DNA from: Raillietiella orientalis | Lineage: Eukaryota | Assembly (NCBI GenBank): GCA_036172245.1 | Contig: JAYWIR010000001.1 | Coordinates: 10,354,001 to 10,418,000 of the forward strand | DNA: 64,000 nt | Reading direction: 5' to 3' | Shown here: one piece after another, positions 2,915-64,000 of the stretch | How the letters are laid out: each line of letters starts with the position of its first letter | How positions within the stretch are numbered: position 1 is the first letter of the stretch | The notes under the pieces: model-generated | The model's input: only the letters and a program-made list of their open reading frames with translations | Told to the model about the DNA's origin: nothing | The model's database searches: none | Translations under genes and position numbers: made by a program

Positions 2915-4110
2915 GGTGGTCCCCTCTACGGTCTTCGCGCGTGGCACCGAACGTCGCAGATTCGAATCCCACCTGGGGAAGGATCGATAGCGAGAAATGG
3001 GTGCGTCCCGAGTTTCGAGTTCCCCTCGAAAGGTAGCGCCGGTTGTCCTGCAGGCTTCGGGTGACACCCGGTCACGCTGAGGAATTTATTCATAAAAAAT
3101 TAACATACACATCTGTGGCAGGGAGTTTGATCCTGCCGCATTATTTATAATTACGAAAAGGAACCTGCCGGGAACTGGCACTCACGCCAACGGGGCTCGC
3201 CATGGCAGCAGAGGAGGAAGGAAGACGAACAAAAGAAAAAAATCAAACAAAAAAAACATGCAGTCAAAAAAATGGGGGGAAGGGAGGTTTCGGGAAGTCG
3301 TCACTGTGTGCCGATGATGTCCTCTGTATCCTTGTAAGGATGCCGGCAAGTTCCTGTTTCAAGACTCCCAGATGGGTCCATCTTGACGCTGTCCCATGAA
3401 AAGGACAGCAGAATAGATGGCGTCCCTGTTGTTTTGAACACCTCTGGAGTTGCTCCATGCAGCAATGATCCCGCATAGGCAGCAAAGTTCTGCTAGGGAT
3501 GCGGCTGGCGTGAGGGATAGCGCAGGAAGAGGCTCTTTAAAACATCTCTGGCGTTGCCACCGGGGGGTTCCAAGGGTCGCGGCAAAGCGTCCCCAAAGGA
3601 GCCGGAGGGCAACACAATCCACTAGTAGGTGCTGGAGGGATTCCCGCTCCCCGCACCTTGCACAATTTGAGTCCACCCTCCCTTCCGTGTTGAATAATGC
3701 TGGCGGGAGTTGCACGGGAGGTCCCAGTGAAGCAGCATCAATGCCGGCTCCTGTCACTTTAAGGGGAGGGTTCGGCAATGGTGGAAGCCGAGACCGAATG
3801 TCACTGCTGACTGGACGGAATCGGAAGCTGCGGATGGAAGGAAGAGGCTGTCTGGGGGTTCCCTTTGGAGACAACTAGAGAGAGCGTTCCTTTCTGGACT
3901 CCATACCAAGCGTAAGGGGAACGGATTCCTCCCTCGTGTGTTTTCCCTGATTCGTGAGGGTAACCCCTATAACTCGAAGGGTTCCACGCACCTTCTTATG
4001 GCGGGGACAGCGTCAGAGAGCTTCGTGGCCCCCCCTCCCCCTCCCAGAAGGCGAACGGTTTCTGGAGTACTCAGTGAACAAAAACAAGGAAAAAGAAAAT
4101 CCGGAAAGAA
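2915..4110 (+). mobile_element. tRNA-derived SINE-like copy S1 (intronic), interrupted by an antisense L1/Tx1 fragment
   Basis: B-box-like GATTCGAATCC at 2959-2969 followed by the family head (gaaggatcga..agaaatgg). Family tail (acgcacc...gagcttcgtg...aggcgaacggtt...gaac + A-rich) at ~3960-4110. Confidence 0.7.
3065..3830 (-). mobile_element. L1/Tx1-type ORF2 3' fragment plus 3' UTR
   Basis: zf-RVT-like NCARCGERESLQHLLVDCVALRLLW. Reverse complement is alignable to ~63060-63810. Confidence 0.8.
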
Positions 4111-4612
4111 GGGAGTGAAGAGAAAACTTCTGTTGAAGCTCATGCAAAATCGCTAATAGGGATGTGTCAAAAGGAGAGCCTCAAAATAAGGAAGGGGGAC
4201 TACGAGTGCTAAACGAAAACGCCCTTAGGGTAATGTGCGATCTTCATGTCATCCAGTTTCCAGTTCTCTCGTTTTGTCTGAAGTGGCTGCACGAAGACAT
4301 GGAAACTCAGTTTCGATGATTGGCGCTGCTGCCTTTGCGCCATAGCTTTGGTCTTCTTGCGACTAAATCTTAGATTCACGCGGCTGTTGGTTTTCCACGC
4401 TTCTTGAACAGTGCAAGGCAACACGTTGCAATCCGTGTTTGAAACGCTCCGTGAAATTCGCCTGCCAAAACTACTGGAAACGCTTCAAAACGGTGTAAAA
4501 TCACCATTCAATTTTATTCATCATTCATAGATTCCCGCGTAGGTTGCCATCATTGATTGCAGTCTGTGTATAATTCCTCCAGGAGCCCGTGGTTTACATC
4601 TCTTCATTTCAG

Positions 4613-5220
4613 GCTCGAAACTGAAGATGAAGACTCATTACAGGGCCCACAAACTATCTTTCTGGCTGAACCTTATCCCTCTTCTGAATAGTCACAAGGA
4701 CGATAGCTCCCTCTCTCATCATATGTTCCGTCAGGAGAATGCCAGTGTCCTGAATTCGAGTACCTCCAAGGACAAAGTTTCCCCGGCTATCGTCACTCCT
4801 TCAACCATCAGTCCGATCACCCTGCTAACACCCATCAAGAAGACTCATTCCCTCTCCCCATCTATAGCTGAAAATCTTCTGCCACTGGGTACGTTCCAGG
4901 TGCTCGAGAACTCACAGGAAAATGACCAATCCTTAACTAACGACCAAGCCTTTGAAACCTACTATGCAGCTTTCAACGTGACGATAATTTTAGGGACTTC
5001 GTTACTAGTGTTGAACATCATTGTTTTCTCCATAGTGTACTGTCATAGAAGGATGCTGAAAAGCAGCGTGAGAGATCGTATTGAAGAGAACAAGACTCTT
5101 TCGTCCTGTGATGGGAACATTCATCTGTGTGAAAGAAGCTGTTCCTCTCACTTTTATTCCAATTATTCACCTAAAGGGGTGCCTACCATGAGGAATGCCA
5201 CACAGACTTCTGATTTCTGA
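4613..5220 (+). CDS. Neuroligin-family gene, terminal coding exon (stalk, transmembrane helix, cytoplasmic tail)
   Basis: Acceptor ttcatttcag ends at 4612. Reads (G)SKLKMKTHYRAHKLSFWLNLIP (neuroligin hallmark), then a Ser/Thr/Pro-rich stalk and TM AFNVTIILGTSLLVLNIIVFSIVY. TGA at 5218-5220. Confidence 0.92.
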
Positions 5221-10935: not shown

Positions 10936-10988
10936 AAGGACAAGATGAGTTCCTCCTGCTATGAAGGACAAGATGAGTTCCTCCTGCT
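10936..10988. repeat. Perfect 25-bp direct repeat with 3-nt spacer
   Basis: aaggacaagatgagttcctcctgct at 10936-10960 and 10964-10988. Confidence 0.95.
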
Positions 10989-13559
10989 TGATCTTCCGTC
11001 ATCCCATTGCCGAATGTGATGTGCCCACTAAAAATGAACCAAGAGATTCTCAACAGCTGAAGCTTGCAATATCGATCACGACAGCTCCTAGCCATTAACA
11101 GGACGAATAACTTTGACAGAGCGTGAAAATTACAAACGATGCCTTGAAATGAATTGGAACCGATAGTGATTCACCATTTGGCCAAATGCTCGCATGAAAT
11201 GCGCCAGGGATGAAGCCGACAGAAAAAGTGCTCAGTTGGGTTGCCATGACTCTCAGAAAATCAGCTCCCGTTCCTGGCATGTCGATTCATCTTCTTAGGT
11301 TTCTTTTATCTAGGAATACTCTGCACATAAAACGAGCGACCCGGATTGATTCACGAGATTCACTTCAGTGACATCGGCATTAGCTAAGGGAGATTTGCAT
11401 TGGAACTGCATCTATCTCTGGATAGCAGTAATGCAGAAATGATTTCTGAATGCCGAACCAGTCGAGTATCGAAAGTCTTGGTAACTGCTGCGGAGGATCG
11501 CAACTGCCGACGTGCCCCGCCTAATCCAACCATAGAACGTTCCTATCCTGATGGAATGCTTTCGAAGCAGCCAGAAAAGAATGGAAACGGCACCAGCATT
11601 ACTACCCTGATGGCAGGAGGACTGAGCTTTGAGGGATCAAAATCTGCTTTCATTGCAATTTTTCTTTTTATCTTTCAGCTCCTTCTGGAAACTTCTTGGA
11701 TTTTCGTGCGCTCACTGAAAGAGCTTCAGGAAATCGTGCATGCTGGACCTTTTCCATGCGAATCTGAGAATCACGCAGCGAAATGAACATTTCTAATCAT
11801 CTCGAGCATCTTCATATGCTAGAGTATTTGCGCGCCGAAAAAAAAAATTTATCATTCGGAATCTGTGATTGCTTTTTGAATGAGGTGCTTTATCCAAGAA
11901 ACACCTCAAGTGTCACCATCGAGAGACTTTCGAAAACTGGATCCATGAAATGCGAAACGCTTTCAATTGAGCACTTACCATCACTTTGTTCCCGGTAATC
12001 CACAGCATGCATGAAACTCCGGTTTTACCTTCGATTGTGAAACAGCATCACCGGGTATTCTGCACTCCTGAGTGCTTGTACATACGCCTTTTCCCTTTTC
12101 ATATGGAAGACATATCGGAGAGTGGAAAAGATGAGCAACGGATTTCGCAAAGTATCAGCGTGCCGCCTGGAACCCTCAACTCTTGATGATTTTCTCCTTG
12201 CTGCTCAGCATGGCCAACCTTACTTCTGGTTACCTCATCCATGAGGCTTCCCACTCCACGAGAAGGGAACGTTCCAAAATTCACCTGCTTGGGAGGGATG
12301 GTCCAGAGAAAAATTCTCTATTAGAAAAGCCTGCTCGCAAACTGGAAGTTTCAATTCCACCTCAACAGCTTCCTTTGGTGAGAAGTTCAAGCTGCCGTCA
12401 GTTGGGTCATCATCATCGAAGCACGCAGACCTTTTCTTAGGCGCAGTTATCCCTGCGAACGACCTTAACGAAGAGTCAGGCCAAGGCAATACGTGTCCAG
12501 CGACCGTTCATTCTCTTTTCCTGATCCGACCTGCTTCATGTCACTGGAAGACATTCTCCATGAAAATGTAACCTCGCGTTCCTCTTGAAATCAAAGCCGG
12601 CATTTTTTTCCCTTTGTCACCAAAGCAAGGTTTCCATTTCCAAAATGATCGAATGCTGGCAATCCAGTGCATCACCATTAGCCTAGGATGATGGAATTTA
12701 GGGTTCTCCTGTTTTTGCTGTTCCTTCCTGAATTTTTTGTTTTTCTGGTTCCCCCTTTTTTTTTTTTTTTTGGTTCTTCAAATACTGTAGAACCATTCTC
12801 CTCCCTAGGATGGCTCACAAAGCTCTTTAACACTATCCACGTCGCATGAGGGTGCGCGTAACCCGTCGAGTTATAAGGAGTACCCACGTAAGGACCGCAT
12901 AATGAACCCAGGAAGACATCGGAGGAAGGAATCCGTTCTTCTGATGTTTAGTACTAGTTGGTACGACGTGGGCAAGGTGGCCGGACTAAATACGCTTAAT
13001 GATCCCCAGGGGCGGATACTTAAAGTAACTTGGCGTTCCGTTGGAGGACATCTACGTTGCAGAATCTTAGGCCGGCAGTCTCCAGAAAGCGGATCAGGCA
13101 CTTGACCCGTTCCATGAAGGCAGGTTTCACCTGCCAGATCGGACCGCGATGTGGAACACTTTCGTGGTCTCCCCCTTCCGCCCTCTGCTTTTTGTTTGTC
13201 TTCCACCTGAGATGATCAGAAAGAGGACGAAGGAGCACCTCAGGATCGCCCTTTTGGGCAAAGGGAGGTCTCGAGTCCGAATGAAGGAGTTGCGTGCGCC
13301 GCGTCGGGACGGCAGTTTTGGACTCATGCTAGAAAAAATGCAGCTCCAGTTCCGGACATCTGTCCTCGTAGCGAAGTTTTGAAGCACCACCTGTTGCGAC
13401 TCCCCTCCTCCACTCCACTCTTTACGTTTGGTAGGGAACCTAGAATCAAACCCTCGCTTTGTTTGTCTCCGAAGAGAACTCCAAGGCAACCTCTTCCTCA
13501 TTCTCGATGGAGGGACCCCAGGCAAAGGGTCCGCTTCTTCTTTACTCCCCTGAAGCGCG

Positions 13560-14110
13560 CTTCCTTGGACTGCAGTGCCCTCCAACAGCTTTGACGGAGG
13601 CTGAGCTCAGCACTCCCGCTTGCCAGGGACACTGCGATGGAATGGCCGCCGCGGTTCCTCGCGAGAGGTGGAGCCACGACGGGCGCCGTGATAGCGACGG
13701 CATGTTGAGTCCGTGCCATCGTTACGGCCCGCCATTTGCTGAAGTCTCGGACGCAGCAAACGGAGGCCTCCAGCATCGCAGTTGTTCGCATGAGGACGGT
13801 TGCCAAGTGGCCTCCTCTGGACGAGGAAGTGAGGAAGGAGATCGGCGATGTTCTGCGTCGCTTCTGAAAGGAAGGAACGGACATTGCTGGTGATCCTTGG
13901 CCCGCCCTCCGTTTTATACAATTGTTTACTGTTCACTCCCTCCCGTTCCGAACTCTTCCCGGTGTTTCATGAACGAAAGAGAAAGGCCAAAGACCCTGCT
14001 TCTGTCCTCCAATTTATTTTTGTTTTTGCCCCTATCCATCCGCTGGACGTTCGGGAAACTGGTCGGTGAACTCTCCCCTCGAACTTCCTTTGGACATTTT
14101 TATGGGAAAA
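13560..14110 (+). mobile_element. L1/Tx1-type 3' fragment plus 3' UTR, inside S2
   Basis: LDCSALQQL*RRL (end of zinc finger). Alignable to 24900-25460; shares the UTR motif gtcggtgaactc..gaac with 25430, 40210 and 46390. Confidence 0.7.
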
Positions 14111-14115
14111 TTTGC

Positions 14116-14235
14116 TACCTGGTCACGCTGGAGCGTTTATTGTTTTTATAGGGAGGTCACCGTATCGACGGTGTATTTTCCAAGTTGTAAGTTTATTTTA
14201 TTATTGTAAAATAAACGCCCCTGCGTCATCGGGTG
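14116..14235. mobile_element. 120-bp MITE-like unit with 26-bp imperfect terminal inverted repeats
   Basis: tacctggtcacgctggagcgtttatt (14116-14141) versus the reverse complement of 14210-14235 (cacccgatgacgcaggggcgtttatt): 20/26 identical. Confidence 0.6.
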
Positions 14236-17200
14236 CAAATCTTAAGGGCACTCCCTGTAGAGAGCAGAGCGCTTCTTACACTCTGGGGAAGCAGCAACCC
14301 TAGAGGGTATCAATCAGCTCCACGGAATGGCTCCATCTTCACAACCGGAAGGAGACTCCGAAAGAAACCGACTCCTTGATTCCTGGATGGACTCCGGAGG
14401 GTCAACTCCCAATTCCGGCCTGTCAATGGAGGACATTCGGTTTCCGCGAGGTCACACAGCCGCCGAGGCGATGCAACGGGACGCATTCGGTCTTGCTACA
14501 TGGAAGAAACGCCGCATATCGTGCAGAAGAATCCTGATCTTCCAACGGGGGTTGACTTTTGGGTTTTCTCGCATCCTACGATGCGTGTTTATGTGGGATG
14601 TTGTCTTTCCCATCAGGCCCGTTGGCAAGCTTAAGCCGTCCCTTCTTCCGCTGAAGAGCAGGAACCAATGACATGCAAAGGAGCAGAAACTCCGATGTAT
14701 TCATTGTGTGCATGAAATACATCTTGAAAGCACGTATCCAGCGCCTGGAGTAAAAGTTTGTACCCACACTTTTTTCAAAAGACTCTGTGCTAAACCTTCC
14801 ATTTTTCTTCCTCCTTTGCACAGCATTTGCAATTCAAATTCCGGAGGCGCTTCTTTCTTTAATATTTCGGTCCTTCTCCTGGATTGACAGCTTGTATTAA
14901 ATTAATGTTTATGGGAAAATCAATCCGAAACTCTTTCCAAGATCGAGTACAGAGGACGTGATCGCTGACTCCCTGCGTCCACGACAGGCGTGCACACGCT
15001 TGCTGCATGAACCCCGGAAAATCGATGGTGATTTTTTGGTTTCTGGCATCTTTCTGGAAACTGCACTCGGAGGCTGGGAGTTTCGAGTCGACACCCATCA
15101 CATCATCGCATGTCGCTGCCGCTGTTCTTGATGCGGAAGAAATGAGAACGCCGCAATGAAAGATGAAGCGTCGAACAAACGGGAAAGAACTGAGGGAGTT
15201 TGGGAAGATTTGCGCGAAAAAGACCTTCGCAGATCGTTCTCAGAAAGGCAGTCGGGATTCTCGAAATTCGCATTTCTGGATATACCTAAAAGCAGTTCGA
15301 AGAAATCCAGGAAGAAGGGTTTCCTAACCAGGTATCCCTAGTTACCTGGAGAAAGTTGCTCGCGCCTGGAAGACGAGCGACCCCATGGAAGAACGGAACG
15401 AAAATAAATCGTCGTGCGTTCTCAACTGGCACGCCTTTTGACACACCATGGAAGCCAAGTCTTGGACTGGAAGAGTCGTTCAGTAAGATCTCAATAGGTC
15501 CTTTATTCATACGGATGTAACACTTAGCCCAAGCACATTTTATTCTCGGTTTTCCACAGTCGTGTGTAGGAACAGCTTACGGCTGTGAGAAATGCAAGAA
15601 CTTCACGAACAAATGCGAGTCCATTTGAGCTTTTAACACCAAGAAACGGAGAAGGGAACTTGAAACCTCAACGAGTCAGAAAAGGGCAAACAAAAGCTAC
15701 ATGTACTCAGATAATTCTTGTAGGTTTCCCTACTTTCAGCACAACGCACCTTTTTCTTCCTTTTTTAGATCTTCGACGAAAATTTTCACATCTTTGCTGG
15801 ATGCACTGGATGCAGTGCACGTCTGCTTTCGAAAACACGCCGTTTGTGGCTGTATGAAGGGTTTTTGAAACACTCAGACAAGCTGTCAGGACATTTCCTG
15901 TTCCTCTTACTTTAAGGTCATCTAACACCGCTAACCGAAAATCAGCTTCCGTGGCTTCCCGCTAGGGTGAAACAGTCTACCATTCCTCACTTCACTTTTC
16001 AGCTTAATTTCTCCCAATTTTTCTTAGGGTTTCTCTAGGACGATGCCTCCAGATCATCTGCCACACAAAGAGAGGTAAGCAACTGCGACCACAGTACGAC
16101 GCCTTCCCAGGTGCACGCCACGAAGAGAGAGATGAAATTCCAAAGTTTGCTTAGGCACTTTCTTGCAGCTTTCGCTTCCCTTTGCAGTGACGGACAGCAA
16201 TGCACCGAGTGTGATACTTCTTTTTTTTTTCCTTTCAGTTTTAAGGCCCTCTAGCGATTCTATGCTACTTACGGAAACACGGGCCACTCTTGAACAAAGT
16301 GATTTTATCACTACCGTCATTCGTCACCCGTATCGTGCTAACACAAGGATTACACGGAGGTTCAAATCCTAGTATCCGAAAGAGTCCACATTAAAATGCA
16401 GGATGATCCCGTCTCATCTATTTTTCCTCTTAAAATAATCGTCGCTTTCTTCGTCCAGGTTTAGGCATGAATGAAAATAGGCTGGGCTTGCCAATTGAAT
16501 GCAAGATTCACATTAGTGCCGTGTAAGGTTTTACTAAGAATGGCCATTCGAGCGCCATGCTTCACATATTTGTCTGTCCGTGAGAAGATATCCTTCTCTG
16601 GAATAAGGGACACTTGCGATTATCGAACCGTTCCATCATGCAAAGAAGCATCGCATGAGGTCATTACGATTCACATTTCTAATGCTGTCACAAGTTCTCA
16701 TCTTGTGATTTTTCACCGGCTCAATGATCTTGGATCACACGCCGACCAGCTGTCCTTCTCACGAGTCCAGCGGTTTTGCTGCTGGGCTAGTAAGAACCTC
16801 ACTGTAGCCTTTCTGATTAGCTTTTAACTTTAGGTAATCGAAAAGTTTAACCATTTGAAATAAAAAGCCCCACTGACTTATGGAGTCTATCTGTTTTAAC
16901 ATCACAAGTTTTCCACTCGTACAATTGGCTGAAACCAACAAACCGTGGCCTCGAAATTCTCGACTTCACTAACCCTTTCGCCAGCGAATCTTTGTGCTCA
17001 GGGGTATCTCAAAATTGGTAGACCAGGAAACACTGAACTCTCAGGACGGTGCCAAATTGCTTTCCACACGCATACTCCTACACTTTTCTGGAGACGCTTC
17101 AGCAATTCATAGATCTTCGCTTTCCAGATTTGCATTTCTTGCCAGCCTCCCGACCTCATTTCTTAGGCTGTTAATCGTATCAAATCCAGAAAACAGGTGA

Positions 17201-17939: not shown

Positions 17940-18690
17940 CTCCTTTTTGGTTCGCCAAGTGTTGAAGAACCGTTCGCCTCCTTACAGAGAGACGCTGTCT
18001 GCATTACTCGAGGGTGCGTGTAATCCATCAAATTGTAAGGGGTAATTCCGGAGGGACCACCTTATGAATCCAGGAAGGCTCCGGATGATGGAGTCCTCCA
18101 TCTGCCTACGCTTGGTAGGGGACCCCGAAGAGAACCGTCGCCCTGGTTGCTCCCGGAAAGGAACCTCTTCCTTGTACTTTCCGGAGGGGTCACCTGAAGG
18201 TGCCACTTCTCTTTTCTTTTCCGAAGGGAACTTGGAAAGGATTTGCTGCTGGAGTTTCTTTTCCGCAGGGAATTCTCAAGGGAACCGCTCCTTTTGTTTA
18301 CTTTCCTGAAGAGGAGCCCGAAGGGATGCTCTTCGAAGGGAGCAGAGCTCTTCTTCACACTCTGGAGAGACAACTCCCCCCGAGGGGGATATCAGCCAGC
18401 TCCATGTTACGGTTCGCAACCGTAGGGGAGCCCAAAGGGAACCAACCGGCTCCTTGGTTCTTGCAAGGAGCCCGTAAGTCAACCTCGAATCCCGGCCAGT
18501 CAACGGGGGCATCCAGCTTCCAAAGCCACGACAGCCGACCTGCGTCATCCTGCGGTGGGAGGCTCGAAACCCACAAAGCACCCAAATCTCTAGAGTCGAT
18601 CCTTCTGCGGGAAGGATTCGAACCCGCAACTCTTGATATAGCGCATATAGAGCGCGGAGACCGCAGCAACCGGTCGCCAACGCAGCCAGA
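17940..18690 (-). mobile_element. SINE-like copy S3, apparently full length and uninterrupted
   Basis: On the minus strand: GGCTGCGT-TGGCGACCGG (A-box-like), perfect B-box GGTTCGAATCC (18624-18614), body with degenerate ~40-bp subrepeats, tail ending gaaccaaaaag. Confidence 0.8.
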
Positions 18691-23039: not shown

Positions 23040-23292
23040 GCTGGCGGGCATGTGGCTGCGGTCTCCGCTCGTGGCACCGATCCTCGCAGGTTCGCATCCT
23101 GCCCGGGAAAGGACCGACACCTAGAAATGGGGGGCGTCGTGAATGTGTGCGAGTTCTTCCCCAGCAGGGTGACGCTGGTCGGCATGCAGGATTCGGGTGG
23201 GGTGGGGGCAATGGTGGAAGCTGGAAACCCCCCGATATACCCGCCGACTGGCTCCGGGATTGGAAGTTGACCCTCCAAGATCCTTCCAGAAA
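23040..23292 (+). mobile_element. SINE-like copy S4 (5' part only), ending at the 26-nt motif
   Basis: B-box GGTTCGCATCC at 23089-23099; body matches 32130-32295; motif at 23296-23321. Confidence 0.7.
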
Positions 23293-24299
23293 TGTAATAA
23301 ATGCTCCGGTATAGCCAGGTGATGATCATCTTAGGCCAACCTTAGTGATTCCTTCCATTGGCAACTTGCATCTGAAGCGCTCCTACTTTTTAAACCAGAA
23401 GCACTACCAATCCCCAGCTCTGTGGCTCTGACAAGCATTGCAAGCGATCCCTACTTGAAGCAGGAACTGTCGACAAACTGCAGGACACCTTTGCCTGGGA
23501 AGCCTCCTCCAGATGGTTCGTTTGTGGCCACTCGTTTGTTTCCTCACCAGCAACGTCCCAAAGTTCAAATGACTTCTCAAAGGACTTCACCTCCGTAATG
23601 GCACTGATCAAAAGGTCATCTGCGAACTCTTAAATAATAAGGGAAAGAAAGTGAAAATGATTCCATAGCAAAGAGACCAACCACTCTTTCCCCCTCCTCC
23701 CCCTACCCCCGTAATCTTCTAAAGTATTTCCAAAGTTTGGAAAACCCTGCCATTTTTAAAAGCCAGTTTCTTGGACTACTCCGATTTGAACAATTTCATA
23801 AATTCCTTCACCCGAGAGGATAAGAGTGCATAACGACATCCGATAAGAGTGCCATGAAGATTTCTCCATTGCTTCTGAAGAACAGTCGATGGCGAGTAAA
23901 GGTGACCTCGCGCTTTCCAGCTTTGACATGGAACTTCGATGTGAACCCGATTTATCCCGGGCACTCGTTGTAAAGAATAAACAACAGGGACATTAGTAGG
24001 ACCCCGAGTTCCACCAAGTCTCGGACACCAGATGGCTGCGTAGCCGATCTGACGGCCGGCGAGATCTGCTTGAGAATGTGGAAAGGGGAAACGAAAATAA
24101 ATAAATAAGAAAACGGAAACACGGTTACACATACGGTGTCTTTGGGGAGAATTGATGGGAGGGAAATTTGGGGTAAATTCTAGGGAAGGGTTGAGGAAGT
24201 TGAGATGGACAATGAATTTGGTTGTGCTTTTCACATTTGCCACTCGCGTTCGCTTTCGGAATGCACAAGTGCCGCTGATCATCGTTGGGTCTTTGGGGA

Positions 24300-25525
24300 C
24301 CCAGACCTTCGGCAATGATGCAGTCTTCCGAGGACTAGGCGCCCTACGAACGGATGTGGATAAAAAGAGACGGTTTGTGGCTGGCTTACGCGTCCTCTAC
24401 ACTCACTACATCTATTGGTTTGGACGCTTTACTAATAGTGCCCAAATCCTGTGACAACCTCAGGAAAAGTGGTCATTGGAAGTGGTGATGCAGGACTCGG
24501 TAAAGTGATGGACCCTGGCCGCCACACACCTCTCCGCAGTGCTGTCTGCCCTCAGGGCAAGCAAAAACAGTAATCTGCCAGCAGGGTGGGAATTTTCCTG
24601 CACCATCGCGGAAAGGACGAAACTCCTCGGCAGCCGGAAGACGCGCGAGCTTGTGGGTGCTGCCACTTCGCGTGCTGTGGTGACGGGATTCCTCCGGTGT
24701 CGTGAACTCCTGAGGGTAGCTCCCGAGTCCCTTCTTCGTTTCTCAAACACTTCGGTATCCCCCCCTCTCCTGGAAACAGGCCGTGCCACTCTTCCTACAC
24801 TGGGGATTCCAGTGCAATGAACGTCGGTACCGCGTTTCAGCAGGGGTTGCGTCCCTGAACTGTTGTTCCAGTGCGAGTCGTCAGAACCAGCCTCGCCGCA
24901 CCTGGTTTTGGACTGCACTGCCCTCCAGGAGCTATGGTGGAGGCTAGCAACAGCGCTCCCGCACCAGGACGCTGCTTGAGATCTGCTGCGACGGTTCTTC
25001 TCGCCGGGAAGACTCTCGATGGGTGCAGTGGTCGCCATCATGGGTTGCATCCGTGCCATCGTCACTGCGTGCTCGAGAGGACCACACAGCGAAGGTAGGT
25101 CACGGGAATGGCAGCTCCTTACCAAAGGACGGCCGCAAGATGGCCCCGCCTGCAAGAGGAAGACAAGGAGAAGATCGGCGGCATCCAGTGTCGGCTCTAA
25201 AGGGAAGAAACCGCGAACACTGGTGACCCTTCTCCATTACCTCCCTTTGTTTTTTGTCCTTATCCCCTACTCCTTTTCTCTCCGTAACTTTACCGGTTTT
25301 GGGGGGGTTTCGATCCCGATGCATACAAAGAGAACCCAAAGATCGTTGCTCCCATCCCACCGAAATTCTCATTTTTGCTGTTGTCCCGCTTCTCTCCTTT
25401 GTTCTGGACTTTTGGATGTCCTGACCCAGGTGTCGGTGGACTCCCCTTGAACCACTTTTGTCTTCTTTTGGGAACTTCGGCTTCCGACCGGTTTATTTTT
25501 TAATAAATAAACTCCTCCGAGGGTG
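24300..25525 (+). mobile_element. L1/Tx1-type 3' fragment plus 3' UTR
   Basis: PHLVLDCTALQELWWRL; homologous to 13560-14110. The 5' boundary is uncertain. Confidence 0.7.
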
Positions 25526-25754: not shown

Positions 25755-26440
25755 GCATAGAGCAGGGAAGTGTATATATAGTAATGTGTGCATATATTGA
25801 TGCTCATGTAAAACAGGGAAACAATGTAATGTACAAATATATACATTGATGTATTTTTAAAAAAGGGAAGTAGTGTCAAGCAATGCATCTACATATATAT
25901 ATCAGGGGAGTGTATATTAAGCATAAAGTAATGTGTATAAATGCATTGAGGTATAAGCAAACAGGGACGTAATATAAATTAATGTATACATATATAACAT
26001 GGAATGCTATATATAATAATATATGCATATTAAATATAAAGTCATGTATATATGTATGTATTATTGTATATGTTGAACAGGGAAGCAATTTAAAATAGTA
26101 TGTATATATAAAACAAGAAAGTGTATATATTATAATGTGTATATAAATTAACGAATATATGGAAAAGGGAAGTAATATAAAATAGTGTATATGTATATAT
26201 AACAACGTAGTAATGTGAAGTAATGTATATATACATAAAACTGGGAAGTATACATATAATAATGTGTACATATTTTAAATATATATTAATGCTTATACAA
26301 AACAGGGAAGTAATACGAGGTACTGTATGTGTACGTATATATACGAGCATACATTACTCTGTATTATTGATATATATACATTATTTTATTTCCTTGTTTT
26401 ATTTTCAAAGTAATGTCAACTAATATATGCATACATACAC
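25755..26440. repeat. AT-rich degenerate tandem array with recurring (A)ACAGGGAAGT core
   Basis: Core variants near 25762, 25812, 25862, 25902, 25961, 26076, 26112, 26164, 26239 and 26300, separated by TA/TG-rich filler. Confidence 0.8.
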
Positions 26441-45888: not shown

Positions 45889-46474
45889 TTTCTGAACAGG
45901 GGTTTCCAGCGCAACCGGAGTGGACACCTGGTTTCTGGTGAGTTGCGTCGTCAATTTGTTTAAGCTGCAGGACTATTGAATCGCTTCCGCACCTCCTATT
46001 GGACTGCGGAACCCTTGAAGAGCTTTGGCTTCAGCACTCCTCCACAATGAGGACACTACCAACGACTTGCCGCGGCGATTTTTCGCGAAAAGAAGGGTCA
46101 CGACAGGAACACTCATTGCGACGATGTGCTGCGTCCGTGCCCTCGTCACAAGCCTCCATGTCTTGGAGTCTCGGGCGCAGCAGAGGGAGCTTCACCTTCG
46201 TGGCAGCCACCTACGCGAGGGCGGCACCTGGAAGAAGGAGTTGAGCTGGAGATCGCCGGCATTCCGCACCAGTCCCGAGAGGAAGGGAGCGGATAGCACC
46301 AAGGAACCCTGTCTTCATCCTCCCTCTTATTTATGTGTTTATTGTCCTCTCTCCTCCTACTCCGGACCGTTCGAGTAACGGATCCGCGTGCCGGTGAACT
46401 ATCTCTTTGAACGTCTTTTTGTCTCCAGGTGGGAAACGCGTTCCCAACTTGCCTGTTCTTTGTGGATGTACGCT
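45889..46474 (+). repeat. Near-identical direct copy of 39713-40297 (L1/Tx1 fragment)
   Basis: About 585 bp; I see 5 substitutions and 1 indel, all in the first ~150 nt. Confidence 0.95.
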
Positions 46475-46739: not shown

Positions 46740-46975
46740 ATGCCCCTTAATGCTGTCCAATCCACGTGCAACTCTTCAAGTTGGGAGGAGGGTGCGGGGC
46801 AACCTTGGCAGGGATCACCATATGTATCCAGGAAGGTTTTAGCCCGTTCCTCTTACTCTCGGAAGGGAACCGCGAAAGGAAGCTTTTTCTTATTCTCTCC
46901 GGACACCCAGCTGGAGGAGTCACTCTTCGTTTCTTCTCCGAAGGGAACCCGGGAAAGAATCCGCTCCGATTTCAC
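46740..46975 (-). mobile_element. SINE-like copy S6 (partial)
   Basis: agggatcaccatatgtatccaggaagg and ccgaagggaacc subrepeats match 18050-18300. Confidence 0.55.
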
Positions 46976-48044: not shown

Positions 48045-48745
48045 GAATGGAATGTGCGTACGTGTATATATTAATCTGTATATGCGTATATAGTCACATA
48101 TGTAATGTGCATATGTGTTTATATGTTATTAGTATATGTGCATATATGTGATGTGTATATGTGTACTGTTCATAATGTAAACATGTATATAATATGTACT
48201 GCGTGTACGTATATATATGTGATATGTGCATGCATATATATGATGCGCATATGTGCATATATGCATACATGTAATGTGTATATGTGTGATATGTAATGAG
48301 TGCACGTGTGAACATGTGATGCATATATGCGTGTATATGTATGTATTAAATGTGCATATGTATGTATATGTAATGTTCATATGTGCATATATGTAAACTG
48401 TATATATGTGTATGTGTGATGTGCATATTTGTATAAATGCAATATGTATATGTAAAAGTATTTTTTTATGAACATACATATATAAACATTTTGAAATACT
48501 TATGTATGTATATACGTACACACACATATATAAAAATTTATATTTGTGTATGTAAGATTTATATATATATGTGTATATGCACATATATTCATGTGTGTGC
48601 ATGTATGTGTATGTGTATGTATGTATGCATATCCGTATATATGTCTTTATAAATATATGTATGTAAATATATATATTTATATACACATGTATATGTGCAT
48701 GTGTATATGCATATATATGTGTGGATAGATAGATAGACATTTACA
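48045..48745. repeat. Compound (TA/TG/CA) low-complexity tract
   Basis: About 700 bp of mostly alternating purine-pyrimidine sequence with sharp edges. Confidence 0.95.
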
Positions 48746-50339
48746 AGTTCAACTCGAAGTCACTGCCTCTATATTCCTCTCACAGCAACCCCAGAGACGT
48801 TCACATCTTTCAAGGCGAGGTTTCCTGAGTCTCAAGGCTTCCCCGCTTCCTCAGAGAAAAGGTGCCTTCACGTTCGGATGCTGCAGCTGCTGGAGTGCTG
48901 TCGGGAAGTAAGCTACGGCTACCTGCCAGTTTGATCACCTCGTGCATCTTGGCCGGACCCTTTGGTGCACGGTGAGGAACAGGGCAGAGCCACACCCGGG
49001 AAGTCCAGCATCCACGGGAATGAGTCATCGATCGCACAAGCGATGGCGCTGGTCGCAGGGATGCTTGTAAGTTCTGACGATGCCCGTATGGGTCTCAAGC
49101 GAAGATGCGCCATGGTGATAACTAAAAAGTGTTCCCATGGTTCTCTCACTAGAGTGAGCTCATGAAGCCCTCAGAAGTTTTGACATCGATTTAACCTTTC
49201 ACAAATATCCTGTTGAGGGAATGCAAAAGCTCTTATTGGACGGCGCCATTGTCTTTCTGCTTGCCGAGACACGCCGTATCGTTCAAAATTCACTGAGTTG
49301 TCCCACTTTGTTTACCACAGCATCCCACTCATGCATGAACCGATGGATTATCCGTTCGGTACTTGAGCATGGGTCACGATGAAGGATGTTTTGCATGTTT
49401 TCTAAACAAAAGACTTCCAAAATGTTGCAACGGTAAGGGGACGTAGATTTGAGTTGAATAAGAGACGCTGATCTTCCTTTCTCGTACCTTCTGAGGGAAG
49501 CGTCCAATGTGAAAATGCTCGAACACATCTTCCCTGGCATGCAAGGAAGCTTCTTAAATTTAAAACAAATCTTCTGGTATCACTGCGTCACTGGAATGCT
49601 TCCTGAAACCTTTACTGGAACATGGCTTAAGAGTTCCTTTCTTTCATTTCCAAAAATATGTGCCGCTGCGGAGATTTCAAAGATGCTTGCATCGGCTGCG
49701 GTGTTATCCTAATTTTCCTTTCGTGTGCCCATCATTTTCCTGACATCTGGTGGCTCCGTTTCACAACTAATATTCCTTCTGGACCGCAGGTAGCATCCGA
49801 GTTCCGTTCCTCTGGTCTCACTTCTTAGCTATCCTCCCAGCAGATGAATCACTGAATTCTGTGAAAATCCGAAAACAAAGAATTCTGAAAGAATTTTCCC
49901 TTGTTCTTGTTCATGCTATGCTCTTCTACTAAGTTTCCGATCTCCTCAGTGGGGATGGCTTCTTCCTGTGCCAGAAATGAGTAATTTGCGCGCCAGCTGC
50001 CTTCCTTGGACGTGGTAGCCTCTTTCTCAAGCTCCCTCTCTGGAATCGAACTTCGATTCCCCGTTACGCGTGACCACCATGGTAGGCGCATAACCTTTCC
50101 TCTACAGTTGATAAGGCAGACACTTGGAAAATGAGTCGCCGGTACGAGAACGTTGTGATCAGCCGAAAGTTGTTACTCAAAGTCGCGAAGAGTTTTTGGG
50201 CTGCGAAGGAAACCCGCTGGTTCCTTTGCAATAAAAGAATTCCATTCTCAAGGACCAAGTGTTCGAAGCATGTATCAGCTCTAGAATTGCCGCCTCATTC
50301 TTCTCCTTTTGCATCTGGTCTGTAAGCCTTCTAGTTGCT

Positions 50340-50640
50340 GAACCAAAAGAACAGCCCTTTGCTCCGTGTGTGGTGTTGCGGCTACCTGGAGCGCCACCGA
50401 AAGAGGCGACAACGACAGAAACATCATCCACTTCTCAGTCCGTTTCCTTGGCCCCACCTGGAAGATATGCAGCAGTAGCTTGCGCCTACCCTAGAAAGGA
50501 TGCAAAGGACGCCATGCTGGAAAGCAGTGAACCCTTCCCAAATCCTCCAAAAGGTTTCTTTACGTTTATTTTTATTTTGATTCTCCTCCCTCTTCTCTGC
50601 TGACGAGGCGAACCTCGATGGTCCGCCCACCGGCTTCTCT
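50340..50640 (+). mobile_element. Short L1/Tx1-type 3' fragment
   Basis: LCSVCGVAATWSA...NDRNIIHFSV parallels LCCLCGIIAAWSN...NNRDAIYSAV; UTR gctgacgaggcgaacc matches 63651. Confidence 0.65.
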
Positions 50641-55339: not shown

Positions 55340-56700
55340 ACCGCTTCGTATTCGCCCGAGAACCGGGATTGGAAGTTGGCCCTCCGGGTTCTTCCAGGAA
55401 TCAAGGAGTCGGTTCCCTTTGGGGTCTCTTTCCTATTGTGAAAATGGAGCCGTATCATCGGGTACCATGGAGCCGGCTGATACTTCTCCAGAGTGTAAGA
55501 AGCGTGCTGCTCTTCGAGGAACGCCCTTTAGGGAAATTTGATAGCGCCCCTTACGGGTTCTCTTCAGAGGAGGAAACAAAACAACTTTCCTGGAGGGGTC
55601 CCTTGTGAGTATCCTCCAAAGGAGAAATTCCGGAGAGCGGATCCCTTTCCGTGTCCCTTTCGTAGAAAAAAAGAGGAATGGCTCCCTTCGGGGAGTTCCT
55701 TCGGAAAGAATACGGAAGGGGTTCCCTTCGGAGGGCTGTTCGGTATGCCATCCGAAGACATGGAGTGGCCCTCAGTGCTGAAGAACAGCAGCGCACTCCC
55801 TCTGGAGTGGCAAGAGTCGGCACTTCTGCTGCTGCACTGGGGTCTTCATAGCAACGTACGCAGAAACCACTGTACGCTGGCGAGGGTGAGCCCAGAATGT
55901 GGCAGGTGGGGGAACTGGAGCCCCTCCCTCACCTGCTTGTGGACTGTGCTGCTCTCCGGCCACTATGGAAACATTTGGGAGCGACCCTCCGGAACCCGGT
56001 TGACAGCCCTCGGTACGTTTTACGGTTCCTCTTCGAGTGAGACTCATTGCAGCCAGCCGCAGCCCTAGCAGTGTTCTGCTGCATCCGCGGGATTGTGGAG
56101 GCCTGGAGCGAAGCCAACGGAGGAAGAAACCAGAGGGACGCCGTCCAGTTGGCAGTTCGCTTTCTGCGGATAGCTGCTCGATGCTCCCACCTAGGACCTA
56201 TTCGAATACGGATTTAGGTGGCGTCCTAGAAAGGATGCAGAGGATTCCCTCCGGCAAACAGTGGTCTCCTCTCGGCCCTCCGAAAGACTTTTGTTTATTT
56301 TTATTTACTCTTTGTTTTTGCTTTTCCTTTTGTTTTTCTAACTCCGCCAGTCTGCACATCGGTGACCCGCCAGGTCCGTGGACAAACGGAGTGTGGTAGG
56401 ACCACGTGTCCAACCACAATTTGTGAGTTTCCTTTAAATTTTAATGAACACTTGAGCGTATCCAGGTGGAAATCGGCGACAACCAGCACGAAGGTTCCCT
56501 TCGGAATCCCCTATTAATCGTAAGAGGAATGGACTCCTACCCCTGGGGCCTCCCTGGATTCACAGGGTGGTCCCTTATAAGGTGAAGGGATCACGCACCC
56601 TCGGGTGTCGTGGACAGTGTGTTAAAGAACTTCGTGAGTCTTCCCTTTAGGAGGCGAACGGTTCTTCAGCACTCCTTGAGAACCAGAAGAAAAAAAAAAG
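55340..56700 (+). mobile_element. SINE-like copy S7 (head missing), interrupted by a sense L1/Tx1 fragment
   Basis: Body 55340-55740 matches 32250-32640; tail 56490-56700 ends in an A-run. Confidence 0.75.
55745..56468 (+). mobile_element. L1/Tx1-type 3' fragment inside S7
   Basis: ECGR.GELEPLPHLLVDCAALRPLW, then a T-rich UTR and the terminal motif at 56443-56468. Confidence 0.75.
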
Positions 56701-58479: not shown

Positions 58480-58735
58480 CTTTGATGGTAACCTCTCCTT
58501 TTCTCTCGGGAACCCCCTTTTCTCCTTTCTCCCGAGAACGTGGTGCCCGCCCCGGTTGCACTGGAAATCCCATTGCAAAAGTAGCAGATCTTGTACCCTA
58601 TAACTTGAAGCATTACACTCACCCTCAGGCGGCATGGACAGTTTGTTAAAAGAGCTTCAAGAGCTCTAAGAAATCGAACGGTTCCTGAGTAGTTAGCGAA
58701 CCAAAAAAGCAGGAAAAAAAAAAGCTGGAAGCAGG
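58480..58735 (+). mobile_element. SINE-like copy S8 (tail)
   Basis: caccctcagg..ggacagt..ttaaaagagcttc..gaacggttc..gcgaaccaaaaaa. Confidence 0.65.
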
Positions 58736-58759
58736 GGAATTTGAAGAACCCTTAAAGGA

Positions 58760-60301
58760 TTTCCATCATTCAGGACCTGTTTAGAACGGCAAGTTTTGCT
58801 TGCCGGAACGGCTCGCGGTGTGGAACTCCTTTTCGACTTTTCTGCTCTTCCTTATGCTTTTTGTTTGCGCAGATGCATTCACCATCGAGAGAAGAACCGA
58901 GGACCTCCTGAGGAAAGCCCTGTGGGACACAGGGAGGTCCAGAGTCTGCCTCAAAGACTTGTGGGCTCCGCGTAGGAATAGTGGACTTGCCATCCTTACT
59001 CTGGAGAGCATGGAGCATTAGCACCAGTTTAGAAAACTCACTCTCGCAGCGAGATTATGGACCACGCCTTCGTGCACACCGGCACGGCTTCTCAAGGAGA
59101 GCAACCGTCTGTGAGGGACTCGCGTCCGTCTTCGTCGCTCGCGAGAGATTACTTCGGCGTTGCAAATACCAACTTTGCCGGGTGGTTTCTCTGGTGGAGG
59201 AGAACACCTGAATTCCCTGCCTCTCCGCGAACTCCACTGCCTGGCTCCAGGAGTCAGTTGGCGCGTGAGGGAAGATCCACAGAGCGTGCGAGGCGGGATG
59301 CGCACACCTGCAACGAAGCGCCAACGATCGCAAGCCGCAGGAGGCGATCGTCTGCAACCCACAAAAGATGCGATGGACCTCATCCACCCCACCTGTCCCA
59401 GTGCTGCCCTACCTAAGGGGCGCAGAGGACAGCGTAACCTCGGAAAGGTGGAAAGCGACATGCCGTTCAGCAGCAAAGAAGAAACTCCTTGACGGGTGTC
59501 GAGTGGTGACGAACGCTTCGATCCCGAGTGTCCCACTCCACGGACTTTGACGCAGAGAAGAGCTGCTCGTAATTCCTCCGGAGGAGGGGAAGCGGCCTCT
59601 AGAGTGCTGGGTCAGTGTCGCCCTCCTCCTCAAGTGGCAGGAGGTCGCGTTGCAGCTGGTGCATGGGGAAATCCCGTACCAAGAGCGCCTTCACCTCTGG
59701 ACACGGGAGGGTGGGTGCTAAGTGGGACAGGTACGGGAACAAGGAGACCATCCTGCACCTGCTATTGAACAATGCTGCCCTCCGAATCCTTTGGGATCGT
59801 TTCGCGACGGTAACCCCGGCGGACGGCCCCAGGGACATTTTCAAACTCCACTTCGTGCGCGATGCCGCACTGACGCCAGCCGCGTTCCTCTCAATTCTCT
59901 GCCGTCTTCGCAAGATCGTAAATCTCAGAAGAGGCTGAAATGGCAGGGATGCCATCCACTGGACGCGGACATTCCTGAAGACCGCCTCGAGATGGCCCCA
60001 CCTGCGACAGGCACGGAAGGAACTTGTCAGCCTTCTGAACAGAATGCAGAGGACGCCTGACAGCGTACTGTGATCCCTTTTTCGGTTCCCCCCCTCCTTT
60101 CCCTTGTAAATCCTTTCCTCCCCAGTTTTGTTTATTTATTTTTGTTTGCTGTCTTCTCTTCCCCCAGGCTGCTGATGCGGACTACGCCCATCTGCGTATT
60201 AGTATTCGGCAGGTTCATTGCACGCGGTGGAACCAAGGGCTCCACCCACACCAATGTAATTCTGTTATGTTACATAATAAATGCTCCGGCATAACCGGGT
60301 G
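58760..60301 (+). mobile_element. L1/Tx1-type ORF2 3' half plus UTR
   Basis: ERLAVWNS...RKALW...V..KDLWAPRRNSGLAILTL (L..P...GGL motif), KETILHLLLN..ALRILW; ends in the 26-nt motif. Confidence 0.8.
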
Positions 60302-62314: not shown

Positions 62315-63905
62315 GGCGACCCTTCGGCGGAGTATCAACCAGCTCCATGGTACGGTTCCTTTTTTACACCCGGAGGAGAACCTTGTAAAGAACCATCTTA
62401 TCCATTTCTGAAAGGACCACGAGGGGGCAACTTTCAACCCCGCCACTCAACGGGGGCATCCAGATCCCGGTTTCCACCACCACCGCAAGCGAATAGAGCT
62501 GTAGCTACAGTTTCGAACACTGGCCCTCATGGAAAAATTATGGAGCACCACCTGGTACCAACCTGCACGTCTTCTTGTCCAGCAAGGCACCGCCAGCGTG
62601 TGATGCGTTCTTGCTTGCACGCCGTACACGCAGCCTCACGGCGGACTGCACCTGCGGCAGGTGGCCGCCTTGGCGAGGAACAACTCATGGATCTCGTGCC
62701 GCACCGCGAATGGCAGTGCCTGGTTACGGGAAACCGTGCGCACGTGGGCGAGGATCCGGGAGCCGAGTGTGGAACAGGGACGACGTTTCCTGTACGTGCT
62801 TAACAGCAACTACACGCTCCAGGAGATCCTGGACGATCCCGCGAAGAGTGCGTGGGCAAGGAGAACCTCCCTCGCCGCCATGCTGCCCTCCCTGAGAGAT
62901 CCCATGGGCAGAAACCTCGAGGTTAGATGGGAGGTTACTGTGGAAATCTCCAGAAGGAGGAAAGGACTGGGCGAGTGGACGATGGGCCAGGTCACTGACG
63001 CTGAGACCCTGAGTGCTCGACCTCTTGGACTTTTGTGCTGGGGCGTGCTACTGGGTATTTCAGAGGAAGACTTCCAGTGGTTCCCGGTGCTCATGAACAC
63101 CCTCACCCACCCCTTAAAGTGGCAGAAGAGTGATGCTGCTGCACTGGGGCTTCCTGTGCAATGCCGTCCAGCATTAGTAGATATGGAAGGGAGGGATGAA
63201 TCCAAACTGTGCAATGTAAGGGGAGCAGGAATCCCTCCTGCACCTCCTAGTGGACTGCATTGCCCTTCGGCCCCTTTGGGGACGCTTTGTTACGACCCTT
63301 GAAACCCCCACAAGCAACTCCAGAGACGTTCTTAAGCGTCGCTTCCAGCGCGACACCCTCACGCCAGCCCCATCCCTAGCAACGCTGCGCTACCCACACG
63401 GTGGGATCGTGGCTGCATGGAGCAATGCCATAGGAGTCCAGAACGACAGGGACGTCATCTATTTTGCTGTCCTCTTCCTGAGGACAGCATCGAGATGGTC
63501 CCATCTGGGAGTTTTGAAACGGGAACTTGTCGGCATCCTTACAAGGATGCAGAGGATGCCCTCTTGCACGCGTTAACCCCTTCCCGAACCTCTCCATTTT
63601 ATTGACTGCATTTTTCGTTTTGTTTTTTTCTTTTTGTTTGTCTCCCCTGTGCTGCCGAGGCGAACCCTGCTGACCTGAATGCTAGATCCCGGCAGGTTCC
63701 TTTCCGTATTCATAAGTAACGTGGCAGGATCAAACTGTCCTGTCCTCCAGACATGTAGGTTTATAAATAAATAGATGTTTCATAAATAAACGCCTCGGCA
63801 TGACCGGGTGTCAACCACTGCCGCACCCGTATAGGTCAACCAGCGTCATCTTGCATGGAGAACTCGAAATGTACGACGCACCTCCCATTTCTCGGCGCCA
63901 ATCCT
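62315..63905 (-). mobile_element. SINE-like copy S9 split by an antisense L1/Tx1 insertion
   Basis: Body 62315-62490 matches 18385-18530; head-proximal part 63814-63905 matches the reverse complement of 32130-32215. Confidence 0.7.
62492..63813 (+). mobile_element. L1/Tx1-type 3' fragment inside S9
   Basis: KLC..CKEQESLLHLLVDCIALRPLWGRF (frameshifted); UTR homologous to 3090-3260; candidate degenerate TSD at 62476-62491 / 63814-63829. Confidence 0.8.
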
Positions 63906-64000
63906 TTATTTTCACCTGGTCACACCGGGGCGTTTACTGTAAAAAAGATATTTACAAAAGAGCATTCATACAAAATGTGAAAAGATCTCTTTCTTCACAT

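What the first reader, a model, noticed from the sequence alone, without database searches (positions are those of the whole stretch)
3065..63938. A conserved 26-nt AATAAA+hairpin motif caps divergent L1/Tx1 3' ends in place of a poly(A) tail
Seen: consensus ~AATAAACGCYCCGGCRTGACCGGGTG ends L1/Tx1 fragments at 3065-3090 (-), 14210-14235, 25506-25525 (shortened), 56443-56468 (17/26), 60276-60301 and 63785-63810. It also occurs at 23296-23321, 14116-14141 (-) and 63913-63938 (-). The core CCGG-N5-CCGG can fold as a stem-loop, and no A-tail follows. The upstream UTRs belong to visibly different subfamilies. Known: L1-clade insertions usually end in poly(A), and some Tx1-clade elements are target-specific (Xenopus Tx1L inserts in the DNA element Tx1D). 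Inference: the motif is either a conserved 3' recognition/priming hairpin, a fixed insertion target, or the TIR of a DNA element that hosts or carries LINE pieces.
Basis: partly seen in the sequence, partly recalled or inferred. Interest (0 to 1): 0.72.

Follow-up and report, generated by a model that had tools for sequence, protein, structure and literature searches.

The report
Tail-less LINEs ending in fixed hairpin
The short hairpin motif is the true, poly(A)-less end of a group of L1-type jumping genes whose families mostly insert at their own exact spot inside other jumping genes, so they offer a natural set of site-specific gene-insertion machines that share one RNA end signal.

Summary
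The motif is the real 3' end of many divergent L1-group (Tx1-like) LINE families: AATAAA-N2-3-CCCGG-loop-CCGGG-TG-NN-AA, followed directly by the target-site duplication (TSD). The genome G000 has 2,586 exact hairpin+NNAA copies (control 1); only 4 carry six or more A's. In five families sampled by ORF2 or UTR, 145 of 150 copies end this way. The motif is neither a DNA-transposon TIR nor the insertion target. Instead, four of the five families have a fixed 9-15-nt target right after it: the RT 'KAFD', RT 'DAKL' or endonuclease 'QEI' codons of other LINEs (antisense), or one site in a SINE-like repeat. In full-length copies the 5' 'TSD' often differs from the host and looks donor-derived (7 of 11 F2 pairs, 3 of 3 F1 pairs). 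Most likely the RT binds the RNA hairpin and starts at a fixed register; this step is inferred. The terminal stem shows no covariation and no RNA data were available. Precedents exist for each part. This scan has already noted both the hairpin end and the LINE-in-LINE targeting on other DNA of this genome; two word searches found no note on the donor-derived 5' block.

The parts
3065..3090 (-). Terminal motif of a family-F3 LINE; the NNAA/TSD junction has lost about 10 nt (reads TCAC-CCGAAG)
3091..3767 (-). 5'-truncated F3 LINE: ORF2 C-terminus (zf-RVT region) and 3' UTR
   Evidence: tblastn to P0001 q1063-1186; Pfam zf-RVT weak, E 0.0046; about 80% to F3 copies
3768..3781 (-). TSD-like 5' copy (CCATTGCCGAACCC) of the F3 target in repeat X
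2926..3060 (+). Host repeat X, head part, split by the antisense F3 insertion; X resumes at about 3782-4050
   Evidence: (D12, D16)
12957..14209 (+). Decayed 5'-truncated LINE (ORF2 q727-882, C-terminus, UTR) between two antisense pieces of repeat X (about 12807-12953 and 14240-14445)
14116..14141 (-). Motif-only remnant (then GCAA) lying antisense inside the UTR of the 14210 LINE, with a possible short TSD (CCC-ATAAAAA)
   Evidence: the TSD is uncertain
14210..14235 (+). Terminal motif of that LINE, then CAAA and repeat X antisense
23296..23321 (+). F5-type motif plus ATGA and the TCATC target word, fused to a piece of repeat X (23056-23292); LINE body absent
24473..25505 (+). Decayed LINE ORF2 C-terminus and UTR, related to L025
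25506..25533 (+). Decayed 28-nt terminal motif (not a shortened 20-mer), then GAAA
32080..32750 (+). Uninterrupted copy of repeat X (about 670 nt, B-box-like word GGTTCGAATCC near its 5' end; SINE identity unproven). Its empty F3 site has no motif
   Evidence: no tRNA hit
55734..56442 (+). 5'-truncated LINE inside repeat X in sense orientation (X at 55372-55733 and about 56490-56618)
56443..56468 (+). Decayed terminal motif, then GAAA
58773..60275 (+). 5'-truncated family-F5 LINE (ORF2 q776-1212 and UTR)
60276..60301 (+). F5 terminal motif (CATAA loop), then a decayed ATAA/TCATC junction
62477..62487 (+). 5' TSD copy (CCACCACCGCA; 9 of 11 identical to the 3' copy)
62488..63784 (+). 5'-truncated F3 LINE (ORF2 q853-1212 and UTR), antisense in repeat X
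63785..63814 (+). F3 terminal motif plus TCAA (true element end)
63815..63825 (+). 3' TSD copy (CCACTGCCGCA); repeat X continues to about 63908
63913..63938 (-). Terminal motif (then AAAA) of a LINE whose UTR and ORF2 C-terminus continue beyond the window
   Evidence: L221

Best explanation
The motif is the RNA 3' terminus shared by a radiation of L1-group (Tx1-like, APE+RT+zf-RVT) LINE families. SHOWN: each copy ends AATAAA-N2-3-CCCGG-(5-6 nt)-CCGGG-TG-NN-AA with no tail; NN and the loop are family-specific; the TSD starts at the next base; four of five sampled families have a fixed target in other repeats and the fifth a short target word; a new copy can land in front of an older full-length copy and form a tandem pair. 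INFERRED: each family's endonuclease nicks its own target, and ORF2p binds the terminal hairpin and starts reverse transcription at a fixed distance from it, 4 nt after GGGTG. The two A's are then either the last templated bases or the first two residues of a poly(A) tail added at the AAUAAA signal, the rest of which is skipped. At the 5' end, full-length transcripts appear to carry at least 7 nt of the donor's own target site, which anneals at the new site and overwrites part of the TSD.
For: 2,586 hairpin+NNAA hits vs control 1; 4 with six or more A's. Forward test: 22 of 30 motif loci have an ORF2 C-terminus upstream on the same strand. Reverse test: 145 of 150 copies chosen by ORF2/UTR end in the motif. 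The A run from +3 is at most 3 in 143 of 143 scored copies. TSDs begin right after NN-AA in L081, L085, L096, L098, L164, L189, L043 and 9 of 30 F3 loci, and the host bases before the TSD differ from NNAA. Targets: F1 16 of 30 at RT KAFD antisense plus 9 tandem, 103 such junctions genome-wide; F2 24 of 30 at EN QEI plus 4 tandem; F4 24 of 30 at RT DAKL plus 2 tandem; F3 17 of 30 at one site of repeat X by BLASTN. Hosts are more diverse than elements (median identity 0.79 vs 0.97 in F2, 0.77 vs 0.96 in F4; 6-14 host clusters). A second hairpin of different sequence is predicted upstream in F1, F2, F3 and F5. The 5' block differs from the 3' block in 7 of 11 F2 pairs and 3 of 3 F1 pairs.
Against: The terminal stem shows no covariation: of 715 stem cells 626 are unchanged, 37 G-U, 50 broken and 2 changed on both sides, those 2 probably one duplicated locus. 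Folding z-scores are weak except in F1 (-3.95; consensus form -0.93). The upstream hairpin is not significant in F1, F4 or F5 (median z -1.1, -0.1, -1.1). F5 has only a 5-nt target word, with 7 of 30 sharing one repeat. Most 5' ends were out of reach or disrupted, so TSDs rest on about 16 resolved truncated or full-length copies. The middles of the F2 pairs were not fetched, and 4 of the 11 are about 11.5 kb apart. No RNA or biochemical data.
Confidence: 0.65

Rival explanations
1. Same element end, different priming: transcripts read through the motif into the donor's TSD, and the first 4-5 nt of that read-through pair with the nicked target strand (R1Bm-like, recalled). The hairpin then serves packaging or binding, and no poly(A) is involved.
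For: The first 4-5 target bases are nearly invariant even at off-target sites (ATCTC in 30 of 30 F2; T100 C100 G96 A96 in F1). There is no element-encoded downstream poly(A) element. The 5' blocks suggest that flank sequence is co-transcribed.
Against: AATAAA is kept 22-23 nt before the AA in all five families, which suits cleavage and polyadenylation. No 3' transduction was seen in the resolved TSDs. Endonuclease specificity alone can explain the invariant core.
Confidence: 0.2
2. The motif is a 3'-processing or termination signal (poly(A) signal plus hairpin, or a histone-like stem-loop end); the RT is not sequence-specific and simply starts at the processed RNA end.
For: AATAAA, a T-rich stretch and TGTA in three families precede it (30 of 30, 21 of 29, 21 of 27). 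The stem is invariant in sequence, as expected of a host-factor site.
Against: A relaxed RT would copy variable A tails; none is seen. TGTA is absent in F1 (1 of 28) and F4 (0 of 29). No Rfam family matches the motif.
Confidence: 0.1
3. The motif is the insertion target, or the TIR of a DNA element that carries LINE pieces.
For: Inverted pairs exist (14116/14210, 63785/63913; L039, L049, L050).
Against: Those pairs resolve into separate LINE insertions. Empty targets lack the motif. Resolved 5' ends are variable truncations or a different conserved word. The divergent-pair pattern has 0 genome hits.
Confidence: 0.03
4. For the 5' block only: mismatched TSD pairs come from gene conversion or recombination between full-length copies, not from an RNA leader.
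For: Copies are numerous and nested; F2 pairs were matched by position only.
Against: Both flanks match one intact host family at 91% or more in the 11 F2 pairs, and the mismatches fall at positions 6-9 and match other hosts' versions. The host-A version makes up 3 of 62 5' blocks (my count) but 9 of 30 3' blocks. Truncated copies have near-perfect TSDs.
Confidence: 0.25

Closest known systems
Target-specific Tx1-clade LINEs that insert into other transposons: Tx1L in Tx1D; crocodilian Tx1-Mar in Mariner-N4_AMi, Tx1-9_AMi in Harbinger, Tx1-8_Crp and Tx1-4_AMi in LTR elements (PMC4494074, passages and section 15; PMC1950540, passages)
   Same: APE-type L1-group LINE with a fixed target inside another repeat; tandem copies around a TSD (stated there for SINEU-3).
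   Different: Here the targets are conserved coding motifs of sister LINEs and a SINE-like repeat, with several specificities in one genome and one shared tail-less end. SINEU, the passenger of Tx1-Mar, has a poly(A) tail (PMC4494074). Placement in the Tx1 clade was not tested by a tree.
Stringent-type L1-clade LINEs: monocot 1a / LINE1-1_ZM and Chlamydomonas L1-1_CR (Ohshima 2013, PMC3747384, passages)
   Same: Conserved 3' end with a hairpin in an L1-clade lineage, read as an RT recognition signal.
   Different: There the stem varies with compensatory changes and the loop is conserved, and L1-1_CR and almost all plant L1s end in poly(A). Here the stem is invariant, the loop varies, the hairpin sits downstream of AATAAA and no tail is copied.
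Zepp and ZeppL L1-clade elements (PMC3446292, PMC8226300, passages; the original Zepp paper was not held)
   Same: Nested insertion into existing LINE copies, building clusters of 3' ends.
   Different: Zepp targets its own copies and forms one cluster per chromosome. Here families hit other families at set codons, mostly antisense, and the motif occurs along whole contigs.
Melanogaster-type R1 and R2 5' junctions (Stage and Eickbush 2009, PMC2718515, passages)
   Same: Site-specific insertion, a 14-bp TSD in ancestral R1, and full-length transcripts that carry upstream target sequence which anneals at the 5' junction.
   Different: R1 and R2 are other clades and target 28S rDNA. In R1A the annealing gives a 9-bp deletion; here it appears to overwrite part of a 12-14-nt TSD.

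Membership tests
L1 group of non-LTR retrotransposons | ORF1, then ORF2 with APE endonuclease, RT and C-terminal zinc-binding region | tested here: met
   Pfam Exo_endo_phos, RVT_1, zf-RVT and ORF1 zf-CCHC on genome copies
L1 group of non-LTR retrotransposons | RT closer to L1 than to R2 | tested here: met
   P0001 vs PDB: human L1 ORF2p E 3e-45, R2 about 1e-13; other clades are not represented in that search
L1 group of non-LTR retrotransposons | 5' truncation and 9-15-nt TSDs | tested here: met
Relaxed (mammalian-type) L1 | Poly(A) tail at the 3' end of insertions | tested here: not met
   4 of 2,586 with six or more A's; A run at most 3 in 143 of 143
Tx1 clade | RT phylogeny with Tx1L, Keno, Kibi, Koshi | not testable with these tools
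   No named Tx1 reference was returned; nearest database proteins are 22-37% identical and mostly unnamed
Tx1 clade | Target specificity (over 20% of flanks in one sequence type, the criterion of PMC4494074) | tested here: met
   F1 16 of 30, F2 24 of 30, F3 17 of 30, F4 24 of 30; F5 borderline at 7 of 30
Stringent-type LINE | Conserved 3'-terminal sequence across divergent families | tested here: met
   Same motif in families whose ORF2 pieces are about 44-63% identical to P0001
Stringent-type LINE | Stem-loop supported by compensatory changes | tested here: inconclusive
   Terminal stem invariant; weak folding z except F1; one upstream pairing shows GTGG/CCAC 17 vs GCGG/CCGC 4 among 25 hits, which may be one event
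Stringent-type LINE | 3' UTR required for retrotransposition | not testable with these tools
   needs an assay
Stringent-type LINE | Partner SINE sharing the tail | not tested
   The motif-only copy at 23296 looks like a remnant; no SINE family with this tail was searched for
Zepp/ZeppL | Nested insertion into existing LINE copies | tested here: met
Zepp/ZeppL | One cluster per chromosome, self-targeting only | tested here: not met
   Hits spread along contig C1; hosts belong to several families
DNA transposon / MITE | Motif as TIR at both ends with outer TSD | tested here: not met

The most novel reading that the evidence does not exclude
An L1-group LINE guild that integrates with R1/R2-like precision at both ends: one invariant RNA hairpin sets the start of reverse transcription without a poly(A) tail, a donor-derived 5' leader anneals to finish the insertion, and a diversified set of endonucleases aims each family at a different conserved coding motif of competing LINEs. 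That would be a natural panel of site-specific integrases with a common RNA handle, and a mechanism by which LINEs knock each other out.
Probability: 0.35. Interest if true: 0.82.

Novelty: new variant of a known kind. Interest (0 to 1): 0.62.

Why it matters
L1-group elements are the textbook case of poly(A)-dependent, relaxed priming. A large lineage that ends at a fixed base after an invariant hairpin makes it testable whether stringent recognition is an old state of the group, as proposed in PMC3747384. Several sister families with different 9-15-nt targets but one RNA end allow a direct comparison of how APE endonucleases change specificity, and are candidates for site-specific gene insertion tools. 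Targeting conserved RT and EN codons of other LINEs would also explain LINE-only nests, and implies that families inactivate one another.

Tried and rejected
TIR/MITE reading: the divergent-pair pattern has 0 genome hits, and inverted pairs resolve into separate insertions. Motif as target: empty sites lack it. One composite copied many times: hosts fall into 6-14 clusters and are less alike than the elements; some near-duplicate rows remain (L051/L057, L121/L122). Rfam: no match at the motif. ARAGORN: no tRNA in the window, so repeat X is not confirmed as a tRNA SINE. No RNA holder was listed, so no reads were laid. JGI metagenome contigs gave 0 exact matches. Protein searches gave no named Tx1 or L1 reference for a tree. 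The original Zepp paper was not held. Ten literature searches listed no paper on a tail-less L1-group end of this form or on LINEs aimed at coding motifs of other LINE families. The library lacks most subscription papers and Repbase reports, and I opened no supplements; those of PMC4494074 list Tx1 junctions and may bear on whether Tx1 families carry tails. The organism was not identified.
Full report
OBSERVATION. All nine copies are present. Three corrections apply. The 25506 copy is a decayed 28-mer ending at 25533 and followed by GAAA, like its relative L025. The 63913(-) copy caps a LINE whose ORF2 C-terminus lies just outside the window. The copies at 14116 and 23296 are motif-only remnants. 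The genome G000 (210 Mb) holds 428 exact hits of the degenerate 26-mer, control 0, and 2,586 exact hits of CCCGG-N5/6-CCGGGTG-NN-AA, control 1. Only 4 of these continue into six or more A's.

WHAT CARRIES IT. Upstream lie LINEs with a CCHC ORF1 and an APE-RT-zf-RVT ORF2. An open 1,217-aa frame (P0001) is closest to human L1 ORF2p among solved structures (E 3e-45; R2 about 1e-13). Database relatives are distant and mostly unnamed, so I could not place it in the Tx1 or L1 clade by a tree. Forward test: 22 of the first 30 motif loci have an ORF2 C-terminus upstream on the same strand; at least 5 of the other 8 share UTR DNA with such copies. Reverse test: I sampled 30 copies each of five families by ORF2 or UTR, not by the motif. 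The motif ends 29, 30, 29, 30 and 27 of them, 145 of 150. Each set includes its query; five F1 and one F4 copy were read by eye because point changes or a register shift escaped the script; the misses are one interrupted and four decayed copies. ORF2 pieces of the other families are about 44-63% identical to P0001.

WHERE THE ELEMENT ENDS. After GGGTG come two family-specific bases and AA (F1 AAAA, F2 AGAA, F3 TCAA, F4 GCAA, F5 ATAA). The A run is at most 3 in 143 of 143 scored copies. I took the 'TG-NN-AA' parsing from an earlier scan note (e1-7511055) and tested it. Where both ends could be read, the TSD starts at the next base: L081 9 nt, L085 10, L096 9 of 10, L098 13; L164 15, L189 14, L043 13 of 14; 9 of 30 F3 loci; and the window copy at 63785, 9 of 11. 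The host bases before the TSD differ from NNAA, so the AA is not target DNA. Most 5' ends were outside the loci or broken by further insertions (27 of 30 F2 loci ran off).

TARGETS. F1: 16 of 30 land antisense at the same base of the RT 'KAFD' codons of other LINEs, 9 sit in front of an older full-length copy, 2 are sense at a similar word, 2 are elsewhere and 1 is interrupted (my reading of the rows). The genome holds 103 such 3' junctions with many host codon variants. F2: 24 of 30 at endonuclease 'QEI' antisense, 4 tandem, 2 elsewhere. F4: 24 of 30 at RT 'DAKL' antisense, 2 tandem, 2 elsewhere, 2 at contig ends. F3, the family of window copies 3065 and 63785: 17 of 30 match one site of a 670-nt repeat X by BLASTN, and most others begin with the same word. 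X has a B-box-like word but no tRNA or Rfam hit. F5 (60276, 23296) shows only TCATC, with 7 of 30 in one short repeat. Hosts fall into 14, 6 and 7 clusters for F1, F2 and F4, and are less alike than the elements, which argues for repeated independent insertion; a few rows are near-duplicates. Six of the nine window copies touch repeat X.

Empty target sites carry no motif, so it is not the target. Resolved 5' ends are variable truncations or a different conserved word, GC(G/A)GACGTGTTT. The 14116/14210 geometry has no exact counterpart in the genome. So it is not a TIR.

STRUCTURE. The 5-bp stem folds in most copies, but the z-score is strong only in F1 (-3.95, a 7-bp stem with a GAAA loop); the commonest form scores -0.93. 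The loop varies in length and sequence across families, which suits a hairpin. An upstream hairpin of unrelated sequence is predicted in F1, F2, F3 and F5, but only F2 and F3 reach median z below -2.

A 5' CLUE. In full-length copies the two 'TSD' copies often disagree. In F1, 3 of 3 pairs read end to end differ at 3-4 of 14 bases. For L090 both flanks join in one intact host (L100), whose site resembles the 3' copy. In F2 I paired 16 5' and 3' junctions by position. I dropped 3 with tandem neighbours and 2 without a close intact host. In the 11 left, both flanks match one host family at 91% or more; 7 differ at positions 6-9, the 3' block following the host and the 5' block carrying another host's version, and 4 agree. 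Four of the 11 are about 11.5 kb apart and no F2 middle was fetched. The host-A version makes up 3 of 62 5' blocks (my count) but 9 of 30 3' blocks. The simplest reading is an RNA leader copied from the donor's flank, as proposed for melanogaster-type R1 (PMC2718515, passages). Gene conversion remains possible.

MECHANISM. Shown: element end, no tail, TSD position, family-specific targets, tandem pairs. Inferred: target choice by the endonuclease (known for Tx1L and R1Bm; PMC1950540, passages); hairpin-guided start of reverse transcription at a fixed register (0.65). Rivals: priming by read-through pairing (0.2); a pure processing signal (0.1); target or TIR (0.03). No RNA run was listed.

COMPARISON AND NOVELTY. 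Stringent L1 ends (PMC3747384, passages), transposon-targeting Tx1 families (PMC4494074, passages and section 15) and nested Zepp clusters (PMC3446292 and PMC8226300, passages) are known. It works like a stringent, target-specific Tx1-type LINE; membership of the Tx1 clade is untested, and the poly(A) feature of relaxed L1 is not met. The combination was not found in ten searches of a library that lacks most subscription papers and Repbase. Earlier notes of this scan report the hairpin end and the LINE-in-LINE targeting (I found it before reading them) on other DNA of this genome. Two word searches found no note on the donor-derived 5' block. Verdict: real; a new variant of a known kind; interest 0.62.

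Noticed in passing
L043, L089, L090, L091, L095, L097, L099, L222, L223 and others: Full-length copies of several families share the 5' word GC(G/A)GACGTGTTT about 0-10 nt inside the element, a candidate internal promoter or initiator.
   Followed up: partly
G000 F1 and F2 full-length copies (L090, L222-L243): The 5' TSD copy often follows the element or another host family rather than the local host, suggesting a donor-derived RNA leader.
   Followed up: yes
window 32080-32750, with pieces at 2926-4050, 12807-12953, 14240-14445, 18050-18632, 23056-23292, 46841-46967, 55372-56618, 58596-58641, 63815-63908: Repeat X, about 670 nt, with a B-box-like word near its 5' end and a CACCC-TC-GGGTG hairpin near its 3' end; a frequent landing site for several LINE families. 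Class not established.
   Followed up: partly
window 49998-50363 (-): Degenerate fragment of eukaryotic 18S rRNA (Rfam RF01960, 83 bits).
   Followed up: no
window 39655-40285 and 45831-46462: Recent duplication 6.18 kb apart (300 nt 100% identical) that includes a LINE ORF2 C-terminal piece.
   Followed up: no
window 33248-34311: Nested inverted repeats (53-55 nt arms, 78-89%) around an AT-rich core; the arm contains AATAAACGCAGGTG, loosely like the motif with the hairpin removed.
   Followed up: no
window 25757-26440 and 48050-48740: AT-rich minisatellite arrays (units of about 38-50 nt and 23 nt); the first is flanked by two copies of a 79-nt repeat at 25623 and 26447.
   Followed up: no
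L031:239-3740 and L032:5740-9500: A much more divergent LINE (ORF2 about 28% to P0001) lies antisense in the 5' part of F2 copies; many F2 5'-3' distances of about 11.5 kb suggest this is common.
   Followed up: no
L195, L197, L212, L213, L217, L218, L220: A short unnamed repeat beginning TCATCCT..GGCC.GTAGTAACGATC and ending in T or A runs is a shared F5 target.
   Followed up: no
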